The notes beneath the pieces are model-generated. The model saw only the letters and a list, made by a program, of their open reading frames with translations, was not told where the DNA came from and ran no database searches. Source: Nostoc sp. PCC 7120 = FACHB-418 (GTDB lineage: Bacteria > Cyanobacteriota > Cyanobacteriia > Cyanobacteriales > Nostocaceae). From it: a DNA stretch of 32,000 bases. Shown here piece by piece: positions 1-30,205 of this stretch (its first letter is position 1; each line of letters starts with the position of its first letter). Both the position numbers and the translations under genes were made by a program. The stretch lies in contig NC_003272.1 of the NCBI RefSeq assembly GCF_000009705.1, forward strand, positions 3,060,001-3,092,000, in the 5' to 3' direction.

Positions 1-32
1 TAGGTAAATTCATGATACGCTCACTCTCCCGC

Positions 33-1250
33 TTACCTTTTTAACAAATGCCAACATTGTTGTGCGATCGCCCAATCTTCTTGAGTATGAATTACTAACA
101 CCCGTACTGTAGAATCAGCAGTGGCGATATCTATATCTACTGGTTTGTTTTGGTTCTTTTCTGGGTCAAGTTTTAACCCTAAAAACCCAAAGGCTTCACA
201 AGCTGCTTGGCGAATACCTGCTGATTTTTCCCCTACGCCTGCGGTAAACACCAACACATCCAAACCCCCCAGACTCGCCAACATGGAACCAATCCCAGAA
301 CGCAGCCGATGTACGTACATATCCCACGCCAGTTGGGCGCGGTAGTTACCTTGGGTAATGGCTTCTATGACCTGGGGTAAATCGCTGGAAACCCCAGAAA
401 TACCGCGTAAGCCGGAAGCTTTATTTAAAACATAGTCCAATCTTTCAGCAGAGTAATCTGATTGTCGCATTAAGTGAACAATGATCCCCGGATCGATGGC
501 ACCGGAACGACTACCCATCATCAACCCATCTAAAGGTGTGAAACCCATTGTAGTGTCAATACTGCGACCATTTTTAATTGCTGCCAAAGAGCAACCATTG
601 CCCAGATGGCAGGTAATTATCCGCAGAGATGCCAAATCTCGACCAAGGATTTGAGCCGCACGAGCCGAACAGTATTGGTGACTAATGCCATGAAATCCAT
701 AGCGGCGGATACCTTGTTCCACCCATTCAAAAGGGCCGGGATAAATAGCGGCGGCATCGGGTAGAGTGGCATGGAAGCCAGTATCAAACACTGCTACTTG
801 GGGAACATCACCCAAACTTTTTTCGATAGCTTCGATACCTTCCAAGGCGGCAGGATTATGTGCTGGGGCGAGGTTGGATAATTTAGCGATCGCCTGTTTC
901 ACTTCTTCAGTAATAATTACACTATGGCGGTAATTTTGCCCACCATGTACCACCCGATGTCCCACCACATCGATTTCGGATAATTGACCGATAACCTTAG
1001 TTGCACCGCGACTGAGGGTATAAAGCATATAGGTGACGTGTGCTTGACGGGAATCACCATATATAGACTCATGGAGCGTTTCACCTCTAGCTGTTTTGAC
1101 CTCAATTTCCGCCACACTTCTGTCTTGAGTCCAGTTAACTTTCCCTTCCCAAAGCGGCTGGGGTGCTTCACTCAGGAGAGCATCATCGGGAATTTCATAT
1201 AGACAACTCTTTTGGCTGCTTGAACCAGCATTCAAAATTAGTACTTTCAT
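33..1250 (-). CDS. ackA: Acetate kinase
   Basis: 405-aa ORF. N-terminus MKVLILNAGSSSQK and the VGHRVVHGG motif are typical of the acetate/propionate kinase family. The length fits a full-length protein. Confidence 0.93.
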   Translation of the reverse strand: MKVLILNAGSSSQKSCLYEIPDDALLSEAPQPLWEGKVNWTQDRSVAEIEVKTARGETLHESIYGDSRQAHVTYMLYTLSRGATKVIGQLSEIDVVGHRVVHGGQNYRHSVIITEEVKQAIAKLSNLAPAHNPAALEGIEAIEKSLGDVPQVAVFDTGFHATLPDAAAIYPGPFEWVEQGIRRYGFHGISHQYCSARAAQILGRDLASLRIITCHLGNGCSLAAIKNGRSIDTTMGFTPLDGLMMGSRSGAIDPGIIVHLMRQSDYSAERLDYVLNKASGLRGISGVSSDLPQVIEAITQGNYRAQLAWDMYVHRLRSGIGSMLASLGGLDVLVFTAGVGEKSAGIRQAACEAFGFLGLKLDPEKNQNKPVDIDIATADSTVRVLVIHTQEDWAIAQQCWHLLKR

Positions 1251-1350
1251 TACATTTACGTGATTCAGGTTTGTGAAGTGTGAGCTATATCATTTCCTAA
1301 TTTCAGGTATTTATTAAACTTATTACCGATATTTTAGGAAAAGCAAAGAC

Positions 1351-1746
1351 GTGAACCGTTTCCAAAAGCTATCCTCAATCGTGTTCCTGTTATTAGCTTT
1401 CATCTATCCGCCTACATTAGTTGAAGCTAAAGAGAATACTCTCAATAATGCTTTGAATGAGCAAACTATTGAAGCAGAAACAAACTTAGTCGAAGGTGAA
1501 CACAAAGAAACATTAATAGCTCACCGACAATATAGACGGCGTTATCACGGAAGAAGACGGGCTAGACGGCATTACCACAGACGGCGCTATCATAATCGGC
1601 ATTATTACAGGCATTACTATCGTAATGGACGTTATCGTGGTCGGCATTATCGTAGAGCAAATTATCGCGGTCAATACTATCGTCGTGGAGGATGGGAACT
1701 TGTTCGTGACCGTCATGGACGATTAATGTATGATTGGCAGCGTTAA
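1351..1746 (+). CDS. Secreted hypothetical protein with an Arg/Tyr/His-rich low-complexity tail
   Basis: GTG start preceded by AGGAAA. Sec-type signal (KLSSIVFLLLAFIYPPTLVEA|K), then an acidic segment. The tail has 23 Arg, 13 Tyr and 8 His in 57 residues. The first ~67 aa align without gaps to the downstream ORF at 2018-2389. Confidence 0.6.
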   Translation: MNRFQKLSSIVFLLLAFIYPPTLVEAKENTLNNALNEQTIEAETNLVEGEHKETLIAHRQYRRRYHGRRRARRHYHRRRYHNRHYYRHYYRNGRYRGRHYRRANYRGQYYRRGGWELVRDRHGRLMYDWQR

Positions 1747-2017
1747 TACCTAAAGGGTGTGTAGATAACCAGAAAGCTATGATTTGCGTAGGTTGGGGAC
1801 GTTATCAACAATCAGTCCCCACCCATCATCAAAGATGGTTTGATTGGTAAGTAATTTAACTGAATTATTCATGATTTATATCTGTGGTATGAGTTGCTTC
1901 TCTATTATTTGATGAACTTATAGGTAACAAAAATATCATTCTGAAGATAGAGACATAGGTATTTACTAAAATTCTATGTTTATCACTGGTATAAATTTTT
2001 TACTAAAGCTTAACAAA

Positions 2018-2389
2018 ATGAAAAGTGTTACCAAACTATCTTCAATCGCCATATTACTTTGTAGCTTAGTTTATCCCCCCCTGCTCACTGAGGCAAAAGC
2101 TACCACTATCAACAATAGTATTGATCAACAAAGTATTGAAACAGATGCAAACCTAATTAGTAATCAAACTGAAGGTTTTTTACTTGCTCAACGTCGGAGT
2201 GTGCGTAGAAGATATGTCCGTCCAGTTGTGCGTGGAAGATATACTCGTCCAGTTGTGCGTGGAAGATATACTCGTCCAGTTGTACGTGGAAGATATACTC
2301 GTCCAGTTGTACGTGGAAGATATGTCCGTCCAGTTGTGCGTGGAAGATATGTCCGTCCGGTCGTGCGTGGAAGATATATCCGTCGTTAA
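2018..2389 (+). CDS. Secreted hypothetical protein with six RPVVRGRY[T/V/I] nonapeptide repeats
   Basis: ATG at 2018 gives MKSVTKLSSIAILLCSLVYPPLLTEA|K, a signal peptide paralogous to ORF 1351-1746. The C-terminus is six in-frame 27-nt repeat units plus one degenerate unit. Confidence 0.6.
   Translation: MKSVTKLSSIAILLCSLVYPPLLTEAKATTINNSIDQQSIETDANLISNQTEGFLLAQRRSVRRRYVRPVVRGRYTRPVVRGRYTRPVVRGRYTRPVVRGRYVRPVVRGRYVRPVVRGRYIRR
2192..2380 (+). repeat. 27-bp tandem repeat: six near-perfect copies plus one degenerate leading copy, in frame within the CDS
   Basis: CGTCCAGTTGTGCGTGGAAGATATACT repeats head to tail from 2219 to 2380. Copies differ mainly in GTG/GTA and ACT/GTC/ATC, plus two silent changes in the sixth copy. 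A degenerate unit lies at 2192-2218. Confidence 0.95.
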
Positions 2390-2537
2390 TACCAATTCAT
2401 CATTAAGAAAGACCGATTTAGTCTAAATTTCTGGGTTTGGATATGTTAAATCCTTTGGGGGAAGAATATCAGGATTCAGGGCTGAAGATTTAGTAGTTAG
2501 TGGCTAGTTATTCCACTAACCACTAAGCTACCAAGTA

Positions 2538-3536
2538 CTAGTGACTTGCTACTACTTCTAGACGAGCTAGTCTTTCTGCTAGTAGTGTTTCTAACTCTTC
2601 TAGTGCTTTGGTAAAACCTTTGATACCTTCATCTAGTTTGTCATAAGCCATGCGATCGGCAGCGTGCATTTTGTCAAATGTAGCTTTATCGATGGAAATC
2701 TTGTCTATATCCAAAGTTGCTGCTTTAGCTGGGTCGAGTTTACGGGGTAGTTCACCAATGGTGGCTTGTAGTTCACCTAATAAACCAGGGGAAATCGTTA
2801 GTAAATCGCTACCTGCTAGTTCAGTAATTTCACCAATGTTACGGAAACTAGCTCCCATAACTTCGGTCTTATAGCCAAACTTCTTGTAGTAGTTGTAAAT
2901 TGTAGTAACTGATAATACACCTGGGTCTTCCGCAGAAGGGTAGCTATCACGTCCGGTTTCTTTTTTGTACCAGTCGAGAATCCGACCAACGAAGGGAGAA
3001 ATTAAGGTGATACCGGCTTCGGCACAAGCGATCGCCTGATGCAATCCAAACAACAATGTCAAGTTACAATGAATACCCTCTTTTTCCAGAATTTCCGCAG
3101 CCTTGATACCTTCCCAAGTAGAGGCAATTTTAATCAAAACCCGTTCTGGGCCAATACCAGCCGCTTTATATTGAGCGATTAATTCCCGTGCTTTGGTGAT
3201 AGTAGCTTCAGTATCGTAAGACAAGCGGGCATCTACTTCTGTAGAAACGCGACCAGGGATAATTTGTAAAATCTTTAATCCAAAGGATACCGCCAGACGG
3301 TCGAAAGCGAGGGAGACAATTTGACCTTTGCTAGCCCCTGCGCCTGCGTCTTTTTTAGCTTGGAGTAAGGTTTGATCAACAATTTCCTGATATTCTGGCA
3401 TTTTAGCGGCTGCCGTAATCAGAGAGGGATTGGTGGTCGCGTCGCGGGGTGTAAACTTTTCAATTGCTTGAATATCACCTGTATCAGCAACTACTACAGT
3501 CATTTCTCGCAATTGTTCTAGTAGATTTTTAGTCAT
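2538..3536 (-). CDS. tal: Transaldolase
   Basis: Motifs DATTNPSL and KIASTWEG. I chose the second ATG (MTKNLLEQL) because GGAG lies about 8 nt upstream. The ORF track extends to 3548. Confidence 0.92.
3028..3035. repeat. HIP1 octamer GCGATCGC (one example of many)
   Basis: The same octamer also occurs at 64-71, 886-893, 20751-20758, 20953-20960 and many other sites. The highly iterated palindrome is a cyanobacterial genome signature. Confidence 0.9.
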
Positions 3537-3576
3537 AAAATACTCCATGATTTTAGTTTGTTAAGACTTACTTGCT

Positions 3577-3620
3577 TGGTTGCTAGATCCCCGACTTCTT
3601 GAAGTAGTCGGGAATCTGAC
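3577..3620. repeat. Dispersed palindromic repeat, copy 1 (TTGGTTGCT-AGATCCCCGACTTCTTGAAGTAGTCGGGAATCT)
   Basis: Imperfect hairpin in the pyk-tal spacer. A near-identical copy in the same orientation lies at 6653-6697. Confidence 0.85.
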
Positions 3621-3810
3621 CACCGTTAGTTATTGCTTTGGACTAATAAAAAATCCATAACACCTGCGTAAGCCCATTTTGTTTAGGATTTACCCTATCC
3701 CCTCTTCTTCACACCCTTTTTGATTCCTTACAATTCTGATTTTGGCAACTTTTCTTAACCATTGCCCAATTTGGCTAAGAAGCAAAAGCCTCAGACTTAT
3801 TCTAGGAATA

Positions 3811-5241
3811 TTAGGCGGTGATTGGTTGTCCAATAGAATGCACTTTAATTAAACTAGTTGTGCCTGATTTACCAATTGGCACTCCAGAAGTAATAACTAC
3901 CTTGTCACCGTCATGCACCAAACCCGTTCTCACGGCGGTGTTGATGAGATTCATAAACATTTCTTCCGCATTGTGGACTGGTGGGGTTAATAAAGGTTCC
4001 ACACCCCAAGAAAGTGCTAACTGATGGTAGGCGGTTTCGTCGGGGGTCAACGCAAAAATGGGTGTAGTCGGACGATATTTCGACACGAGCTTTGCTGTAC
4101 TCCCTGATGTGGTGTTGCAAAGAATCGCTTTTGCGCCTGTTTCGTAGGCGATACGACAGACCGCTTCAGCTACAGATTCGGTGACACTCAGACCACCTGC
4201 TTCATGGGATAAGCAATGTTTACTACCCTCTTGCAAAGACTTTTCTGTAGTCACGGCGATATCGTGCATAACCTGGACGGCGGCGACGGGATATTGTCCT
4301 ACAGCCGTTTCCCCAGAGAGCATGACGGCATCTGTACCATCGAGAATAGAGTTAGCAACGTCTGTAGCCTCCGCACGGGTGGGATCGGGAGCGCTAATCA
4401 TCGACTCTAGCATTTGCGTTGCTGTAATCACGGGCTTACCAGCTTGGTTGCAACGGCGAATGATGTCCTTTTGAATCAATGGGACTTCATGGATAGGCAT
4501 TTCCACACCCAAGTCACCACGAGCAATCATAATCGCATCAGCAACGTCGATGATAGAATCAATTTGCTCAACGGCTTCTGGACGTTCAATTTTGGCGATT
4601 ACCCGAATAGTTTTCCCCGCCGCTTCAATCATCCGTTGCGCTGGTTCGAGGTCATAAGGCGATCGCACAAAAGACACCGCCACCCAATCTACACTCAAAT
4701 CGATGCCAAAACGCAAATCCTGCAAGTCCTTTTCGGTGATGGAACTGACAGGTAAACGAGTCGCTGGCAGGTTAACACCCTTACGGGTAGAAAGAAGACC
4801 CCCGATTTTGGCAATAGCCCGAATGCGATCGGCATCGCGATCTGTCACAATCAACTTGACACGACCATCATTAATTAAGATTGGTTCCCCAGGTCGTACC
4901 ATTGCGAACAAGGTCGGCAAAGGTAAAGGCAATTCATCAAGACTACTACCCTTTTCTTGCAAGACAAAAGTCACTTCCTGACCAGCCTCTACCATTAACC
5001 CTTCTGGTGGTAAAGTTCCCAAGCGAATCTTCGGCCCGCATAGGTCTTGCATAATCGCCACAGGCTTTTGTCTGTCAGCACTGATTTGCCGCAAATACTG
5101 AGCAGTTTGGGCATGGAAGTCATAAGCTCCATGAGAAAAATTCAGCCGTGCTACATTCATCCCAGCTTCTACCAACGCTTCTAAACGTTCTGGTGCAGAT
5201 GTAGCCGGGCCTACAGTACAGATAATTTTAGTTCGACGCAT
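3811..5241 (-). CDS. pyk: Pyruvate kinase
   Basis: 476 aa. N-terminus MRRTKIICTVGPA, plus the NFSHG and MIARGDLGVE motifs. Confidence 0.93.
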   Translation of the reverse strand: MRRTKIICTVGPATSAPERLEALVEAGMNVARLNFSHGAYDFHAQTAQYLRQISADRQKPVAIMQDLCGPKIRLGTLPPEGLMVEAGQEVTFVLQEKGSSLDELPLPLPTLFAMVRPGEPILINDGRVKLIVTDRDADRIRAIAKIGGLLSTRKGVNLPATRLPVSSITEKDLQDLRFGIDLSVDWVAVSFVRSPYDLEPAQRMIEAAGKTIRVIAKIERPEAVEQIDSIIDVADAIMIARGDLGVEMPIHEVPLIQKDIIRRCNQAGKPVITATQMLESMISAPDPTRAEATDVANSILDGTDAVMLSGETAVGQYPVAAVQVMHDIAVTTEKSLQEGSKHCLSHEAGGLSVTESVAEAVCRIAYETGAKAILCNTTSGSTAKLVSKYRPTTPIFALTPDETAYHQLALSWGVEPLLTPPVHNAEEMFMNLINTAVRTGLVHDGDKVVITSGVPIGKSGTTSLIKVHSIGQPITA

Positions 5242-5248
5242 AGATATT

Positions 5249-5290
5249 GGGGATAGGGGATAGTGAACAGTGAACAGTTACGACTGACTA
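5249..5290. repeat. STRR-like heptamer array (GGGGATA x2, GTGAACA x2, then degenerate heptads)
   Basis: Read directly from the sequence. It lies immediately upstream of the pyk start codon (5241) in the minus-strand sense. Confidence 0.7.
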
Positions 5291-5346
5291 ACTGTTCTAA
5301 CTTTTCGCGTCATGTGGAAAAGTTAACGCCAAACCTAACCCCCCAG

Positions 5347-5410
5347 CCCCCTTCCCTACCAGGGAAGGGGGAGCAATCAAAGCCTCTCTCCTTGCAGGGG
5401 AGAGGTTTGG
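5347..5410. repeat. GC-rich double hairpin of a dispersed-repeat type
   Basis: CCCCCTTCCC-tacca-GGGAAGGGGG (5347-5371) is a perfect 10-bp stem. It is followed by CCTCTCTCC-ttgca-GGGGAGAGG. Both lie downstream of the gap1 stop (5473) on the minus strand. Confidence 0.6.
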
Positions 5411-5472
5411 AGAGGGGTTTTCCAGATACAGTGAAAAGTCAGACTAACTGCTCACCGAATAACTGATAACTG

Positions 5473-6525
<1,053 letters not shown>

Positions 6526-6652
6526 TCAAATTAATCTGGGCGTTTACCCTAGCTTCAACACTGCAAATAGCCAGGTGAATTTTAGTCTGACTGAGCTGAT
6601 CGTGACAGCCCCAGACGCTTTAAGCCCAATTACTTGGCATATTTTAAGGTTT

Positions 6653-6697
6653 TGGTTGCGAGATCCCCGACTTCTTCAAGAAGTCGGGGATCTGAGA
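6653..6697. repeat. Dispersed palindromic repeat, copy 2 (perfect 16-bp arms AGATCCCCGACTTCTT / AAGAAGTCGGGGATCT)
   Basis: The palindrome spans 6661-6693. It begins 14 nt downstream of the xfp stop on the minus strand, so it may act as a terminator or RNA-processing hairpin. Confidence 0.88.
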
Positions 6698-6710
6698 TCC
6701 TCCCTAGTCC

Positions 6711-9092
6711 CTAATACGGCCATTGCCAGTCACTAATGTCTGGCATATCTTCGCCGTGTTGGGAAATGTAGTGTTTGTGTTCGATGAGCTTGTCTTGTAG
6801 TTGTTGCTTGACGTAGGCTGCTTTGTAGCCCAGTTTTGGTACGCGATCAATTACGTCCATGACTAGATGGAAGCGATCGAGGTCGTTCAGCACAACCATA
6901 TCAAAGGGAGTGGTGGTGGTTCCTTCTTCCTTGTAACCGCGCACATGGAGGTTGTTGTGGTTGGGTTGGCGATAGGTTAGGCGATGGATTAGCCAAGGGT
7001 AGCCATGAAAGGCGAAAATAATGGGTTTGTCGGTAGTGAAAATAGTCTCGAAGTCTTTGGGATTTAGACCGTGGGGATGTTCTGTTTTGGGTTGTAGTGT
7101 CATCAAATCGACAACGTTGACTACCCGTACTTTTAAATCCGGGAAGTGTTGGCGCAAAATGTCTACAGCTGCCAAAGTTTCTAGGGTGGGAACATCTCCG
7201 GCGCAAGCCATGACTACATCTGGTTCACTACCTTGGTCGTTGCTAGCCCATTCCCAAATACCAATGCCTTTGGTGCAGTGTTTAACTGCTGCATCCATGT
7301 CTAGGAATTGTAATGCTGGCTGTTTACCTGCAACTATGACGTTGACATAGTTACGGCTTCTTAAACAGTGGTCTGTCACCGATAATAAGGTGTTGGCATC
7401 GGGGGGAAGATATACCCGAATGATCTCAGATTTTTTGTTAACTACATGATCGATAAATCCGGGGTCTTGGTGAGAGAATCCGTTATGGTCTTGTCGCCAA
7501 ACGTGGGAGGTCAGTAGGTAGTTGAGGGAAGCCACAGGTCTGCGCCATGAAATGTGGCGGGTGGTTTTCAACCATTTGGCGTGCTGGTTGAACATGGAGT
7601 CAATGATATGGATAAAGGCTTCGTAACAGGAGAAGAATCCATGACGACCTGTCAGCAGATATCCTTCTAACCATCCTTGACAGCAGGTTTCACTGAGGAT
7701 TTCCATCACCCGACCACTGGGATCAAGGTGGTCATCTTCTGGTAGCTTTTGAGCAACCCAAGTTCTATCGGTGACATCTAAGACGGCGTTGATGCGATTT
7801 GATGCTGTTTCATCAGGGCCGAAGACACGGAAGTTACGGCTGTCTAGGTTGAGCTTCATCACATCCCGCAGGAATTTGCCTGTGACTTGGGTGGCTTCCG
7901 CCATGACTCTACCTGGTTGGGGAACTTCAATGGCGTAGTTTTGAAAATCTGGCATCACCAGGTCACGCAACAGGATACCGCCGTTAGCGTGGGGATTATC
8001 TCCCATACGCCGATCGCCTTTTGGTGCTAATTCTGCTAATTCTGGTATGAGTTTGCCGTTAGCATCAAAGAGTTCTTCTGGTTTGTAACTCTTGAGCCAT
8101 TCTTCTAGTAATTTCAGGTGTTCTGGATTACCTGTAACATTGCCAAAGGGTACTTGGTGCGATCGCCAGTAATCTTCTGTTTTCTTGCCATCTACTTCTT
8201 TTGGCCCTGTCCATCCTTTGGGAGTCCTGAGGATAATCATCGGCCACTGGGGACGCTTGCTAAATCCATGTACACGGGCTTCTCTTTGGATACTGTGAAT
8301 TTCCGCAATCACTGTATCTAAAATAGCTGCCATCTGTTGATGCACAAGGGCGGGATCAGAACCTTCGACAAAATAAGGTTTGTATCCATAGCCGACAAAT
8401 AAGCTTTCTAACTCTTCGTAGCTTAACCGTGCTAGGACTGTGGGGTTAGCAATTTTATACCCATTGAGGTGGAGAATTGGCAGTACTGCGCCATCACTAG
8501 CCGGGTTGAGGAACTTGTTGGAATGCCAACTAGTAGCTAATGCGCCTGTTTCCGCTTCCCCATCACCAACAACAGCCGCCACAATTAAATCAGGATTATC
8601 AAAAGCCGCACCAAAGGCATGAACAAGAGCATAACCCAGTTCACCACCCTCATGAATTGAACCAGGGGTTTCCGGTGCTACGTGGCTGGGAATACCACCA
8701 GGGAAGGAGAACTGTTTGAAAAGTTTCTGCATCCCGCCAGCATCTTGGGAGATGTTGGGGTAATACTCGCTGTATGTCCCTTCTAGATAAGTATTCGCTA
8801 CCAGTCCAGGCCCGCCGTGACCAGGGCCGGCGATATAAACCATACTCTGGTCGTATTTCTTGATAATCCGATTGAGATGGACATAAATAAAGTTCAGTCC
8901 TGGCGTAGTTCCCCAGTGTCCTAAGAGACGGGGTTTAACGTGTTCTTTGTTGAGTGGTTCTCTTAGTAAGGGATTATCAAGTAGATAAATTTGTCCAACT
9001 GACAAATAGTTGGCTGCACGCCAGTAGGCGTTGATTTTATGCAGTTCTTCGTCTGTTAAAGGCTTTATCTGTGGAGGACTTGCTAAAGTCAT
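6711..9092 (-). CDS. xfp: Xylulose-5-phosphate/fructose-6-phosphate phosphoketolase
   Basis: About 793 aa. HEGGELGY signature and a ThDP-enzyme layout. I chose the ATG at 9092 (MTLASPP), which has GGAG 6-7 nt upstream. The ORF track begins at a TTG at 9104. Confidence 0.93.
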
Positions 9093-9442
9093 ATCAATCT
9101 CCAATTACACAATTATTTTGCCGGATTCGTTAGTATGCCAGTTTAGTGATCTACGGGATGCGATTCATCTTACTTGTGACGAATTTTTCCAGTGGCTAAC
9201 AGGGACTTTAGGCGTGATTAGCCAATTTTATACATTTGTACCCATCTAAAATAAGGCTAAAGAAATTCTGTTACTGGCTCCCCTGAAAGGTTAACAGACT
9301 TCACATTTTAGCGAGTAATTTTTAACATTAATTTTAGGTAATGTTAAGAAAGTCACAACGTAATTCAAAAAACAAATAACTACTATTTGTTTTTCGGTAT
9401 GACTAAATGGAGCTTTTGAGACAATTGCCAAAAATTGTTAAT

Positions 9443-10703: not shown

Positions 10704-10850
10704 ATTAGGACTTACGCACCCAAGTTGTCTGTTGAGACCTGGTGTAAGGGGGTAAGGGTATAGGGGTGTAAGGGTTTCAAACATTTATACATCTGTACCC
10801 TATACCCTTGTCCAAACCCTTGATCTTTCGTTTTCATGCACAAGTCCTAT
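10704..10850. repeat. MITE-like nested inverted repeat
   Basis: Outer arms TAGGACTTACGCA (10706-10718) and TGCACAAGTCCTA (10837-10849) match at 11 of 13 positions. They enclose an imperfect internal hairpin (AAGGGTATAGGGG... / ...CCCTATACCCTT). Confidence 0.4.
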
Positions 10851-14965: not shown

Positions 14966-15032
14966 AGACGCGATTAATCGCGTCTCTCTAACAATTACCG
15001 AGCGATTAATCGCGTCTCTAACAATTACCGAG
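14966..15032. terminator. 20-bp perfect palindrome plus a ~31-bp direct repeat between convergent genes
   Basis: AGACGCGATTAATCGCGTCT lies at 14966-14985. The unit CGATTAATCGCGTCTCT(CT)AACAATTACCGAG occurs at 14971-15002 and 15003-15032. The second copy overlaps the protease stop codon. Confidence 0.55.
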
Positions 15033-30154: not shown

Positions 30155-30167
30155 ATTGGCTATTTTT

Positions 30168-30205
30168 TGAGTGTTGACTGTTGAGTGTTGACTGTTGAGT
30201 GTTAA
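30168..30205. repeat. STRR3-like heptamer array (CAACAGT/CAACACT alternating on the minus strand)
   Basis: On the plus strand it reads TGAGTGTTGACTGT x2 followed by TGAGTGTT. CAACAGT is the STRR3 heptamer described in heterocystous cyanobacteria. Confidence 0.75.

What the first reader, a model, noticed from the sequence alone, without database searches (positions are those of the whole stretch)
1351..2389. Adjacent paralogous secreted proteins: conserved leader, acidic spacer, hyper-cationic Arg-rich repeat tails
The two ORFs align without gaps over their first ~67 residues. Shared elements are KLSSI, YPP-L-EAK, T-NN, Q-IE, NL, L-A-R and RRRY.

After that point they diverge completely:
- One tail is an irregular R/Y/H array with 23 Arg, 13 Tyr and 8 His in 57 residues.
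- The other is six RPVVRGRY[T/V/I] nonapeptides.

Both begin with a Sec-type signal and an AXA-like site (VEA|K, TEA|K). An acidic ~30-aa stretch follows, and then the basic tail.

A conserved leader with an anionic pro-segment and a variable polycationic C-terminus resembles precursors of charge-masked cationic peptides. It also resembles a leader/core precursor layout. I cannot assign either ORF to a named family.

The pair lies on the opposite strand inside an otherwise co-oriented glycolytic cluster, which suggests an insertion. Possible roles are binding of polyanions (eDNA, polyphosphate, sheath or exopolysaccharide, LPS) or antimicrobial activity.
Basis: partly seen in the sequence, partly recalled or inferred. 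Interest (0 to 1): 0.7.

Follow-up and report, generated by a model that had tools for sequence, protein, structure and literature searches.

The report
Secreted arginine-tyrosine repeat protein pair
Two neighbouring small genes of the cyanobacterium Nostoc (Anabaena) PCC 7120 encode proteins that are probably exported, with a shared leader and extremely arginine- and tyrosine-rich, disordered tails. They belong to an unnamed family found only in heterocyst-forming cyanobacteria, and its function has never been tested.

Summary
The window is Nostoc sp. PCC 7120 chromosome 3,060,001-3,092,000.

- **The two genes.** ORF1 (1351-1746, RefSeq RS14625, absent from the original annotation) and ORF2 (alr2562, true start 2018, 123 aa) are paralogues (BLASTP E=8e-21). 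Each has a Sec-type signal peptide, a mildly acidic ~32-aa segment and a +24/+25 tail.
- **Expression and selection.** Both are transcribed from mapped start sites (published transcription-unit map) and are under purifying selection (dN/dS 0.2-0.5).
- **The family.** A leader-only profile search of 1.84 billion proteins finds about 13 clusters. Every named source is Nostocales. All clusters carry basic, mostly Arg/Tyr-rich tails; across family tails Arg is 35-38%, Lys 0.6-0.7% and Tyr 13-16%.
- **Type A (ORF1-like).** Conserved tail ending in a predicted beta-hairpin.
- **Type B (ORF2-like).** Lineage-specific in-frame tandem repeats.
- **Database matches.** None in Pfam, NCBIfam, PADLOC, PHROGs or PDB sequences, and the locus tags appear in no main text of the searched paper library.
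- **What is not supported.** A recent insertion (the ackA-A-B-tal order recurs in several Nostocales genera), stoichiometric charge masking (-3/-5 against +24/+25), and a RiPP precursor (no conserved partner genes).
- **Best guess (inferred).** Exported, disordered polycations that bind anionic envelope or matrix polymers. An antimicrobial-precursor role remains possible.
- **Also seen.** Both genes lie fully antisense to extensions of the tal and ackA mRNAs.

The parts
1240..1319 (+). Conserved promoter region of ORF1 (type A). Boxes: GTACTTTCATTAC at 1240-1252, TTTGTGAA at 1270-1277 (-50/-43), GA[AG]CTATAT around -35, and AGGTATTTATTAAAC at 1305-1319 (-15/-1).
   Evidence: An alignment of 12 type A upstream regions is conserved for about 110 nt, even where the neighbouring genes differ (A7). 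Type B upstream regions share the proximal part, from about AAGTGTG and the AGGT[AG]TTTAATAAA box to the start codon (A8). Positions are relative to the published TSS.
1320..1800 (+). ORF1 transcription unit: published TU01649, TSS 3061320, 5'UTR 31 nt, 3'UTR 54 nt. It ends inside the inverted repeat at 1791-1824.
   Evidence: Supplement of PMC10287535. The window-to-chromosome offset of 3,060,000 was checked on four genes.
1351..1746 (+). ORF1, type A protein, 131 aa, GTG start (RefSeq PCC7120DELTA_RS14625; BAY68184.1 in strain NIES-23).
   Evidence: 74 homologous clusters. dN/dS 0.24-0.48 in all regions.
1351..1428 (+). ORF1 residues 1-26: Sec-type signal peptide MNRFQK / LSSIVFLLLAFIYPPTL / VEA|K.
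   Evidence: Composition and heuristics. AlphaFold2 helix at residues 3-18, pLDDT 75-80. A26 and K27 are invariant.
1429..1524 (+). ORF1 residues 27-58: acidic/polar segment (net -5) ending in the conserved (E)LL[LI]AH junction.
1525..1668 (+). ORF1 residues 59-106: Arg/Tyr/His-rich low-complexity tail, predicted disordered.
   Evidence: pLDDT below 50 for residues 31-110.
1669..1743 (+). ORF1 residues 107-131: conserved C-terminal motif GQYYRRGGWELVRDRHGRLMYDWQR, predicted beta-hairpin (strands 114-119 and 125-130).
   Evidence: Invariant G, Y, R, G, W, R, G, Y, W. pLDDT 72-78.
1988..3753 (+). ORF2 transcription unit: published TU01651, TSS 3061988, 5'UTR 30 nt, 3' extension 1364 nt running antisense across the whole tal gene.
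   Evidence: log2 fold change -1.71 at 9 h after nitrogen step-down (adjusted P 2.7e-6), recovering by 24 h.
2018..2389 (+). ORF2, type B protein, 123 aa (alr2562 / RS14630). The annotated 137-aa form starting at 1976 begins upstream of the TSS.
2018..2095 (+). ORF2 residues 1-26: Sec-type signal peptide MKSVTK / LSSIAILLCSLVYPPLL / TEA|K.
   Evidence: AlphaFold2 helix at residues 2-18.
2096..2191 (+). ORF2 residues 27-58: acidic/polar segment (net -3) ending in FLLAQ.
2192..2386 (+). ORF2 residues 59-123: polycationic tail (25 Arg, 0 Lys, 7 Tyr; net +25). RRSVRRRYV followed by six RPVVRGRY[T/V/I] units. Predicted disordered.
   Evidence: pLDDT about 40 for residues 62-123.
2200..2384 (+). 27-bp in-frame tandem DNA repeat, 6.9 copies, 92% match. 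Copy number differs in a 101-aa variant (P0090).
1987..2537 (-). 551-nt 3'UTR of the tal mRNA (TU01650), fully antisense to ORF2.
1251..1965 (-). 715-nt 5' leader of the ackA transcription unit (TU01648), fully antisense to ORF1.

Best explanation
**What it is (well supported, about 0.85).** ORF1 and ORF2 are real, separately transcribed genes. They are ancient tandem paralogues of an unnamed protein family restricted to Nostocales. Each encodes a pre-protein of about 120-130 aa. It has a cleavable Sec signal peptide, a short acidic/polar N-terminal segment ending in a conserved (E)LLLA[HQ]-R(R) junction, and an intrinsically disordered tail.

The tail is about 35-38% Arg and 13-16% Tyr, with almost no Lys. 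Type A (ORF1) keeps a conserved Arg/Tyr/His tail that ends in a Trp-flanked beta-hairpin. Type B (ORF2) carries tandem repeats that each lineage has re-expanded independently, so only composition and the Arg/aromatic-aliphatic pattern are conserved.

**How it most likely works (inferred, about 0.4).**
- The signal peptide takes the protein across the cytoplasmic membrane and signal peptidase I removes it after EA|K.
- The acidic segment immediately after the cleavage site keeps the early mature region export-competent. It does not mask the tail.
- The mature polycation (+19 to +22) stays in the periplasm, cell envelope or sheath.
- There its Arg guanidinium groups and Tyr rings bind several sites at once on anionic polymers. 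Candidates are acidic or sulfated exopolysaccharide, the carboxylates of peptidoglycan or lipopolysaccharide, and extracellular DNA.
- In effect it acts as a non-enzymatic cross-linker or coacervating glue of the envelope or matrix of growing filaments.
For: **Shown**
- Paralogy: E=8e-21.
- Family size and range: 74 type A and 8 type B clusters. Every named cluster is Nostocales and annotated 'hypothetical'.
- A leader-only profile against 1.84e9 representatives finds only this family, with diverse basic tails.
- Transcription: each gene has its own TSS and transcription unit.
- Purifying selection: pooled dN/dS is 0.24-0.48 in every region of type A. Pairwise values are 0.21-0.36 for both genes, against 0.02-0.06 for the neighbouring enzymes.
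- All type B DNA repeats have periods divisible by 3.
- Signal-peptide features and invariant EAK.
- Tail composition: Arg 34.8/38.5%, Lys 0.6/0.7%, Tyr 15.9/13.2%. The background is 4.9/4.4/3.0%.
- AlphaFold2 gives pLDDT below 50 through the tails, and a C-terminal hairpin at pLDDT 72-78 in type A.
- No conserved partner genes. Type A sits in unrelated contexts in Nostoc, Calothrix and Tolypothrix.
- Expression: alr2562 drops 3.3-fold at 9 h of nitrogen step-down and recovers by 24 h, like the ribosomal-protein and ATP-synthase operons listed beside it. This fits a growth-linked envelope component better than a stress-induced weapon.

**Inferred from established knowledge**
- Near-exclusive use of Arg over Lys together with Tyr is the residue pattern of multivalent binders of sulfate, phosphate and carboxylate groups. 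It is also the pattern of cation-pi 'sticker' proteins such as secreted animal cements (for example the tick glycine-rich protein in PMC11794139, seen).
- Acidic or neutral early mature regions favour Sec export.
Against: - No localisation, peptide or phenotype data exist.
- The proteins are absent from the main-text protein tables of two Anabaena exoproteome studies. ORF1 was not in the old annotation, and trypsin would shred the tails. Even so, each pro-segment would give one good tryptic peptide, and neither was reported.
- The binding partner is unidentified.
- One family member (P0094) has a mixed-charge RRRFDRDSHD repeat with net charge of only +13. This weakens a pure polycation model.
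- Translocating more than 20 positive charges through Sec is energetically costly.
- The conserved junction, and the type A hairpin, have no role in this model beyond speculation.
- SignalP could not be run.
Confidence: 0.4

Rival explanations
1. Secreted antimicrobial or host-defence peptide precursors. The conserved signal and anionic propiece would be removed at the conserved [HQ]-R-R junction. This would release a hypervariable Arg-rich peptide that kills competitors or grazers. It would be a bacterial analogue of cathelicidin or preprodermaseptin precursors and of Pro/Arg-rich or protamine-like peptides.
For: - The architecture matches: a conserved pre-pro region and an unalignable cationic C-terminus across lineages.
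- Type B tails contain RP[VYI] motifs and 38% Arg.
- The family evolves about 10 times faster than its neighbours.
- Repeat number is polymorphic (P0090).
Against: - No immunity, processing-protease or export gene is conserved nearby.
- dN/dS is 0.17-0.35 in the tails, with no sign of positive selection.
- The type A tail is conserved over the whole family.
- Pro is only 4.7% in type B and 0.9% in type A. True Pro-rich peptides have more than 25% (from memory).
- The pro-segment cannot neutralise the tail.
- A dibasic-specific protease would also cut throughout the tail.
- Expression tracks growth rather than stress.
Confidence: 0.2
2. Signal-anchored or membrane-surface proteins. The N-terminal hydrophobic segment would stay uncleaved, or the cleaved tail would stay on the membrane. 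The polycationic tail would coat anionic lipids (PG, SQDG) on the periplasmic or thylakoid-lumen face, for example bridging or organising membranes.
For: - There is a single hydrophobic segment with charge bias +2 (N side) against -2 (C side), giving N-in/C-out.
- Cyanobacterial Sec signals can target either the plasma or the thylakoid membrane (established knowledge).
- The proteins were not found in exoproteome tables.
Against: - The c-region has a canonical small-x-small site with a helix-breaking PP and invariant EAK. This argues for cleavage.
- There is no second hydrophobic or amphipathic element in the tails.
Confidence: 0.15
3. The locus acts mainly at the RNA level. The ORF2 and ORF1 transcripts and the tal and ackA transcripts overlap completely. 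The conserved tail-to-tail B/tal arrangement would then be an excludon-like switch between growth-phase expression and the nitrogen-stress-induced sugar-catabolic genes. The peptides would be secondary.
For: - The published transcription-unit map shows a 1364-nt alr2562 3' extension over tal, a 551-nt tal 3'UTR over alr2562, and a 715-nt ackA leader over ORF1.
- alr2562 falls at 9 h of nitrogen step-down.
- talB and the xfp operon are described as upregulated during heterocyst development and dependent on SigC/SigE (PMC4390870). ackA rises about 10-fold.
- B is next to tal in 5 of 6 type B contexts looked up (the window), and also in 8 further type A loci.
Against: - Protein-level constraint is clear: dN/dS below 0.5, in-frame repeats, a conserved leader, and conserved composition.
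- Type A keeps its sequence and promoter after moving away from ackA and tal in Nostoc, so it cannot depend on that overlap.
- No causal test exists. This role could coexist with a protein function.
Confidence: 0.12
4. RiPP precursor peptides, with a leader recognised by modifying enzymes and a repeat core that is modified and exported.
Against: - The leader is a Sec signal, not an NHLP/Nif11 or double-glycine leader. There are no NCBIfam or Pfam hits.
- No cyclase, radical-SAM, protease or ABC-exporter gene is conserved next to any member. Type A has unrelated neighbours in different genera.
Confidence: 0.03

Closest known systems
Vertebrate prepro-antimicrobial peptide precursors (cathelicidins; frog preprodermaseptins)
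   Same: The order of parts is the same: a conserved signal peptide, then a conserved anionic propiece ending in basic residues, then a hypervariable cationic C-terminal domain. Paralogues have unrelated tails.
   Different: - There is no sequence relationship. No cathelin domain or any other Pfam hit appears at E<=10.
- The organism is bacterial.
- The propiece is far too weakly charged to mask the tail.
- No processing enzyme is known.
- There is no evidence of positive selection.
- Antimicrobial activity is untested.
Protamines and Pro/Arg-rich antimicrobial peptides (Bac7, PR-39, apidaecin)
   Same: Arg clusters are separated by short neutral or hydrophobic spacers. Type B units such as RPVVRGRYT or RRPVYRRSRY look like such peptides. 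One UniRef entry for a type A member is auto-named 'Sperm protamine P1'.
   Different: - No protamine family appears among the Pfam hits at E<=10.
- Arg is 35-38%, not above 50%, and Tyr is 13-16%.
- Pro is only 0.9-4.7%.
- The proteins are Sec-exported rather than nuclear.
- Type A has a folded C-terminal hairpin.
Secreted cationic, Tyr-rich low-complexity adhesive or coacervating proteins (mussel foot proteins, sandcastle-worm cement proteins, tick cement glycine-rich protein, PMC11794139)
   Same: They are secreted and disordered, and built from short tandem repeats of basic and aromatic residues (with Gly in the P0103 and L076 tails). Repeat number and sequence vary while composition is conserved.
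   Different: - The animal proteins are unrelated in sequence.
- Most of them use Lys and DOPA rather than Arg and Tyr.
- No tyrosinase or partner polyanion has been identified here.
- Adhesion or phase separation is untested.
PatS / PatX / HetN morphogen peptides of heterocystous cyanobacteria
   Same: They are small proteins specific to the same lineage. Some have a hydrophobic N-terminus and a basic C-terminal motif. Type A has RDRHGR near its C-terminus.
   Different: The defining RG[ST]GR pentapeptide is absent from all 179 unique family sequences.
Excludon-type overlapping convergent transcription units
   Same: The alr2562 and tal mRNAs overlap over their full lengths, and the ackA leader overlaps ORF1. 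Their responses to nitrogen step-down are opposite, as far as the data go.
   Different: This describes the transcripts, not the proteins. No causal antagonism has been shown. Type A retains its function-related conservation outside this arrangement.

Membership tests
Sec/SPase I-dependent exported protein | Tripartite signal peptide: basic n-region, hydrophobic h-region of 10-17 residues, and a c-region with small residues at -3/-1 after a helix breaker. | tested here: met
   - n-region MNRFQK / MKSVTK (+2).
- 17-residue core, mean hydropathy 1.9.
- YPP, then V-E-A|K or T-E-A|K.
- A26 and K27 invariant.
- No twin-Arg motif and no lipobox.

This was judged by inspection only; SignalP was not available.
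Sec/SPase I-dependent exported protein | Demonstrated export and cleavage. | not testable with these tools
   No proteomic identification was found. The proteins are absent from the main-text tables of PMC4390845 and of the 2026 bioRxiv exoproteome paper.
RiPP precursor peptide | Co-located maturation or export genes, conserved with the precursor. | tested here: not met
   Neighbours are metabolic genes in the Anabaena clade. In Nostoc, Calothrix and Tolypothrix they are unrelated and variable.
RiPP precursor peptide | Recognised leader family (NHLP, Nif11, double-glycine). | tested here: not met
   No NCBIfam or Pfam hit beyond noise.
Cathelicidin-type prepro antimicrobial peptide | Cathelin-like pro-domain. 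| tested here: not met
   A Pfam scan at E<=10 gives only two sub-threshold, unrelated hits.
Cathelicidin-type prepro antimicrobial peptide | Conserved pre-pro region with a hypervariable cationic C-terminus. | tested here: met
   The leader-only profile retrieves members with unrelated basic tails. This is an architectural analogy only.
Cathelicidin-type prepro antimicrobial peptide | Proteolytic release and antimicrobial activity of the C-terminal peptide. | not testable with these tools
   Needs peptide chemistry and bioassays.
Protamine / protamine-like | Match to protamine profiles. | tested here: not met
   No protamine family appears among the Pfam hits at E<=10. The tails are 35-38% Arg and 13-16% Tyr, and the signal peptide implies an extracytoplasmic location.
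Proline/arginine-rich antimicrobial peptides | High Pro content with PRP-type motifs. | tested here: not met
   Pro is 4.7% in type B tails and 0.9% in type A tails. The >=25% Pro threshold is from memory.
PatS/PatX/HetN | RG[ST]GR motif. | tested here: not met
   0 of 179 unique sequences contain it.
Excludon-like antisense arrangement | Long overlapping transcripts from convergent or divergent genes. | tested here: met
   Published transcription-unit coordinates map exactly onto the window.
Excludon-like antisense arrangement | Mutually exclusive expression with a causal link. | tested here: inconclusive
   alr2562 changes by -1.71 log2 at 9 h without nitrogen. ackA is induced about 10-fold, and talB is reported as heterocyst-upregulated. 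The values for tal and ORF1 in the same dataset could not be retrieved. There is no causal test.

The most novel reading that the evidence does not exclude
Heterocystous cyanobacteria encode a lineage-specific, ribosomally made, Sec-exported class of Arg/Tyr 'sticker' polypeptides. These would act in one of two ways:
- as an extracellular or periplasmic phase-separating glue for the shared envelope or sheath of the filament, a bacterial counterpart of animal cement proteins;
- as the first bacterial example of a eukaryote-style prepro host-defence peptide system, with a conserved leader and hypervariable cationic repeat tails.

In either case their genes would be wired into the sugar-catabolic tal and ackA transcripts by full-length antisense overlap. 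Expression of the envelope or defence peptide and of heterocyst-type carbon catabolism would then be reciprocally controlled.
Probability: 0.2. Interest if true: 0.75.

Novelty: new variant of a known kind. Interest (0 to 1): 0.5.

Why it matters
- **Unnamed family in a model organism.** The family is conserved, expressed and compositionally extreme. It sits in one of the best-studied model cyanobacteria yet has no name or domain entry, and the searched literature does not mention it. One member (ORF1) was missing from the original genome annotation, and its start site was classed as a non-coding TSS.
- **If the tails bind envelope or sheath polymers.** They would be a simple, genetically tractable component of the filament's shared extracellular matrix. 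They would also be a natural Arg/Tyr coacervating peptide of possible materials interest.
- **If they are antimicrobial.** They would extend the conserved-leader, variable-cationic-tail logic of animal host-defence peptides to bacteria.
- **The antisense overlap.** Complete overlap with the tal and ackA mRNAs gives a concrete, testable case of mRNA-mRNA interference at a central carbon-metabolism operon.
- **Practical corrections.** The alr2562 start codon should be moved to window 2018. Two TSS classes should change to gene TSSs (nTSS_3061320f and iTSS_3061988f).

Tried and rejected
1. **Domain and structure databases.** Pfam, NCBIfam, PADLOC and PHROGs scans, and a PDB sequence search with the type A profile, gave only sub-threshold noise.
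2. **C-terminal motif search.** At 41-43 aa it returned nothing at E<=1, not even family members, probably because of composition filtering. Whether the hairpin occurs on other proteins is therefore unknown.
3. **RNA families.** Rfam at E<=1 over 1-4000 found nothing. The 5'UTR plus early coding region of ORF1 has no unusual fold (z=-0.15). A riboswitch or structured-leader reading is rejected.
4. **Literature.** Full-text searches for alr2562, the RefSeq locus tags and the GenBank protein accession BAB74261 gave 0 papers. A composition keyword search found nothing relevant in cyanobacteria.
5. **Expression supplements.**
   - The Flaherty 2011 table was truncated before alr2562.
   - PMC7932525, PMC13156569, PMC4734099 and PMC11797042 held nothing usable.
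   - Mitschke 2011 is not held.
   - The nitrogen-response values for the ORF1 and tal transcription units in PMC10287535 could not be reached before the supplement look-up cap.
6. **Recent insertion or mobile element.** Rejected on synteny. There is no phage-family hit. GC content does dip to 0.32-0.38 around the two genes and their intergenic DNA, against about 0.40-0.52 elsewhere in 1-7000. The lowest values fall on the intergenic windows, so I did not read this as foreign DNA.
7. **PatS/PatX-like morphogen.** Rejected: no RG[ST]GR.
8. **Consensus promoter scan.** It found no more sites than shuffled sequence. The real TSSs come from the published map.
9. **Fold search.** Not run on the AlphaFold2 models, because mean pLDDT of 49-55 would give meaningless matches.
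Full report
**Identity of the window and the two ORFs**

An exact-sequence look-up identifies ORF2 as alr2562 of Nostoc sp. PCC 7120 (BAB74261.1, 137-aa form, and a 123-aa RefSeq-type form). ORF1 is a 'hypothetical protein' present in strain NIES-23 (BAY68184.1) and in several FACHB Nostocaceae assemblies. Both lie on a 6,413,771-bp contig.

Published transcription-unit coordinates fit the window exactly if 3,060,000 is added. The 5'UTRs of 31 and 30 nt place the start codons at 1351 and 2018. A 3'UTR of 54 nt ends ORF1 at 1746. The tal and ackA UTR lengths also fit.

The - strand neighbours are ackA (33-1250), talB (2538-3548), pyk1 (3811-5241), gap1 (5473-6504) and xfp (6711-9104). PMC4390870 lists all2563-all2567 as the SigE-activated xfp operon.

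**Check of the observation**

- BLASTP of the two products gives 40% identity and E=8e-21, with no gaps across the leader.
- The 23 R / 13 Y / 8 H count in 57 residues is exact.
- ORF2 has six RPVVRGRY[T/V/I] units encoded by a 27-bp repeat at 2200-2384, 6.9 copies.
- The leaders have +2 n-regions and 17-residue hydrophobic cores, then YPP and VEA|K or TEA|K. A 32-residue segment of net -5 or -3 follows, then tails of net +24 and +25.

Two corrections apply.
- ORF2 starts at ATG 2018, not 1976. The mapped TSS is at 1988 and all homologues begin MK[SGN].
- ORF1's tail is not just irregular. It is conserved family-wide and ends in a conserved motif.

**The family**

ORF1 retrieves 74 clusters, all about 105-142 aa. 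Every named one comes from Nostocales (Nostoc, Anabaena, Trichormus, Calothrix, Tolypothrix, Halotia, Komarekiella, Nodularia and others). All are 'hypothetical' with no precomputed Pfam domain. I call these type A.

Type A members share the leader, an (E)LLLAHRR junction, an Arg/Tyr/His-rich stretch and a C-terminal motif GQxYRHGxWELVRDRHGRLMYDWQR with invariant G, Y, R, G, W, R, G, Y, W.

ORF2 retrieves only 8 clusters, which I call type B. Their tails are 9-10-residue RRRYIRRPxV-like repeats of variable number.

It found 14 hits at E<=1e-3. Thirteen are small proteins of this family. The fourteenth (P0100) is an odd 876-aa repeat protein.

The tails form a diverse collection of tandem repeats: RRQQY, RRPVVRRRVI, RFGRYQNIQRRQ, GFGRYQRIRRGQ, GGYYRRR, and even a mixed-charge RRRFDRDSHD. 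Genome loci add RRSQY/RRPVY 5-mers and GGSRYRSRGYY. All named sources are Nostocales.

So the leader does define a family with variable basic tails, and the family is narrow.

**Coding status and selection**

- Codon alignments of 77 type A genes give pooled dN/dS of 0.24 (signal), 0.35 (acidic segment), 0.31 (junction), 0.48 (tail) and 0.34 (C-terminal motif).
- Against Nostoc parmelioides and Anabaena subtropica, ORF1 has omega 0.26 and 0.21, and ORF2 has 0.33 and 0.36. ackA, tal, pyk and gap have 0.02-0.06. Tail-only values are 0.17-0.35.
- Both genes are therefore under purifying selection, about ten-fold more relaxed than their neighbours. There is no signal of positive selection.
- Every type B gene carries its own DNA tandem repeat, with periods 15, 18, 27, 30, 33, 36, 45, 54, 57, 60, 72, 81 or 108. 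All are divisible by 3, and matches run mostly from 74% to 100%. The tails diversify by in-frame repeat turnover.
- A 101-aa variant of alr2562, lacking four units, exists in public assemblies.

**Composition and structure**

- Across the family, tails are 34.8% (A) and 38.5% (B) Arg but only 0.6% and 0.7% Lys. Tyr is 15.9% and 13.2%, and His is 9.5% in type A only. In 19 long ORFs of the window (7,739 residues) Arg, Lys and Tyr are 4.9%, 4.4% and 3.0%.
- Family-wide, the acidic segment has a median net charge of -4 (range -6 to 0). The tails have a median of +19 (range +10 to +27). The acidic segment cannot neutralise the tail.
- AlphaFold2 with family alignments gives a confident N-terminal helix. 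pLDDT is below 50 for ORF1 residues 31-110 and about 40 for ORF2 residues 62-123. ORF1 has a beta-hairpin at 114-119/125-130 with pLDDT 72-78.

**Genomic context**

- The order ackA - A - B - tal - pyk - gap (- xfp) recurs in PCC 7120 relatives, A. subtropica, A. azotica, Komarekiella, Roholtiella, Nostoc sp. MG11, Nostoc sp. B(2019) and a Trichormus-like metagenome contig.
- Some lineages keep A but have lost B (L041, L066, L070, L077).
- In most Nostoc, Calothrix and Tolypothrix genomes, type A sits in unrelated and mutually different neighbourhoods.
- Type B is tail-to-tail with tal in 5 of the 6 type B contexts I looked up, including cases without ackA or type A alongside. The exception lies next to a GH38 gene.
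- No modifying enzyme, protease, transporter or immunity-like gene travels with either type.
- The pair is therefore an old tandem duplication at this locus, not a recent insertion. PHROGs gives no hit. GC falls to 0.32-0.38 across the two genes and their intergenic DNA, lowest in the intergenic windows. I do not take this as evidence of foreign origin.

**Expression**

The supplement of Brenes-Alvarez et al. 2023 (PMC10287535) lists the following units.
- TU01649: window 1320-1800, TSS 'nTSS_3061320f', gene RS14625.
- TU01651: window 1988-3753, 'iTSS_3061988f', alr2562, 3'UTR 1364 nt.
- TU01650: tal, window 3792 to 1987, 3'UTR 551 nt.
- TU01648: ackA, starting at window 1965, 5'UTR 715 nt.

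Both small genes therefore have their own start sites. The 'non-coding' and 'internal' TSS labels reflect the missing ORF1 annotation and the over-long alr2562 annotation.

TU01651 falls 3.3-fold at 9 h after nitrogen step-down (adjusted P 2.7e-6) and recovers by 24 h. The ribosomal-protein and ATP-synthase operons listed beside it follow the same profile.

About 110 nt upstream of type A is conserved across genera, even in relocated copies. The conserved block extends to a GTACTTTCAT element, which in PCC 7120 contains the ackA start codon on the other strand. Type B upstream regions share the proximal part of it. Type A uses GTG (76 of 78) or TTG, never ATG.

No Rfam family and no unusually stable fold is present.

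**Interpretation**

With high confidence, these are real, expressed genes for small proteins with Sec-type leaders and disordered Arg/Tyr-rich tails, forming a family specific to Nostocales.

The mechanism is inferred. I favour an extracytoplasmic polycation that binds anionic envelope or matrix polymers at several sites at once. The acidic segment would serve as an export-compatible early mature region, not as a charge mask.

The reasons are these.
- The family insists on Arg over Lys together with Tyr, in an AT-rich genome (the window's own ORFs use Arg and Lys about equally).
- It tolerates any repeat sequence that preserves this composition.
- The tails are predicted to be disordered.
- There are no partner genes.
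- Expression is linked to growth.

The main rival is a prepro antimicrobial peptide. Its architecture fits strikingly well. It is weakened by purifying selection on the tails, conservation of type A, low Pro content, lack of immunity or processing genes, and the weak propiece charge.

A membrane-surface role and an RNA-level (excludon-like) role cannot be excluded, and the latter could coexist with a protein function. A RiPP precursor and a PatS-like morphogen fail their defining tests.

**Novelty and score**

No database family, solved structure or paper in the searched library covers these proteins.

The kind of protein is known: a secreted low-complexity polycation, or a conserved leader with a variable cationic tail. 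This bacterial, Arg/Tyr-specific, lineage-restricted version with two tail regimes is a new variant.

I score interest at 0.5. The family is real, unusual and testable, but it has no demonstrated function.

Noticed in passing
window 1251-3792, both strands: Complete sense/antisense overlap in the published transcription-unit map. The alr2562 unit runs 1364 nt past its stop codon, across all of tal. The tal 3'UTR (551 nt) covers all of alr2562. The ackA unit starts at 1965, so its 715-nt leader covers all of ORF1. alr2562 is down at 9 h of nitrogen step-down, whereas ackA is induced about 10-fold at 12-21 h and talB is reported as heterocyst-upregulated.
   Followed up: partly
window 1240-1350; L002, L004, L039 etc. 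around 5890-6000: About 110 nt upstream of type A is 75-90% conserved across genera, even where the gene has moved to unrelated neighbourhoods. The conserved block reaches a GTACTTTCAT element, which in PCC 7120 is the first codons of ackA on the opposite strand. Either the relocated copies carried the ackA start region with them, or ackA's start lies inside a conserved promoter element. The boxes (TTTGTGAA, GAACTATATA, AGGTATTTAATAAA) match no regulator site I could name.
   Followed up: partly
window 1351; 78 type A loci: Type A genes start with GTG in 76 of 78 loci and TTG in 2, never ATG. Type B genes mostly start with ATG. The conserved non-ATG start suggests that translation is deliberately kept low.
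   Followed up: no
window 1975-1988: The annotated ATG of the 137-aa alr2562 (1976) lies upstream of the mapped TSS (1988), inside a TATGTT -10-like hexamer at 1975-1980. The 14-residue N-terminal extension is an annotation artefact.
   Followed up: yes
window 2200-2384; P0090: A 101-aa variant of alr2562 that lacks four of the nonapeptide units is present in public assemblies. This is either repeat copy-number polymorphism or an assembly collapse.
   Followed up: no
P0100 (876 aa): A protein built from about 16 tandem copies of a ~54-residue unit (…LLLLLAEIFYPRLAECLKLCASQTTTEENVEEAIGR…). It matches positions 12-41 of the leader profile 16 times (E=6e-10). Its source and meaning are unknown.
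   Followed up: no
L041 6300-8400 (Fortiea sp. LEGE XX443): Where type B would sit between type A and tal, there is a ~2-kb segment with two - strand ORFs. One is 375 aa with a Walker-A-like GANGAGKSN motif and the other is 237 aa. This is possibly an inserted ATPase-plus-partner defence-type module.
   Followed up: no
L064, L020, L050: Metagenome bins labelled Leptolyngbyaceae (L064) or Chroococcales (L020, L050) carry loci typical of Nostocaceae. L064's ackA, tal, pyk and gap are 93-98% identical to those of PCC 7120. The bins are probably mis-binned or mislabelled.
   Followed up: no
window 1791-1824 and 2490-2526: There are two inverted repeats. GGTTGGGGAC/GTCCCCACCC lies at the mapped 3' end of the ORF1 transcript. 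A 14-bp stem (TTAGTAGTTAGTGG/CCACTAACCACTAA) lies between the alr2562 and tal stop codons. Neither has a T-run, and the published units read through the second one.
   Followed up: partly
window 14970-15032, 30167-30203, 10741-10775: Other short tandem repeats occur elsewhere in the window: 30 bp x 2, the heptamer TTGAGTG x 5.3, and the octamer GGTGTAAG x 4.4. They were not examined.
   Followed up: no
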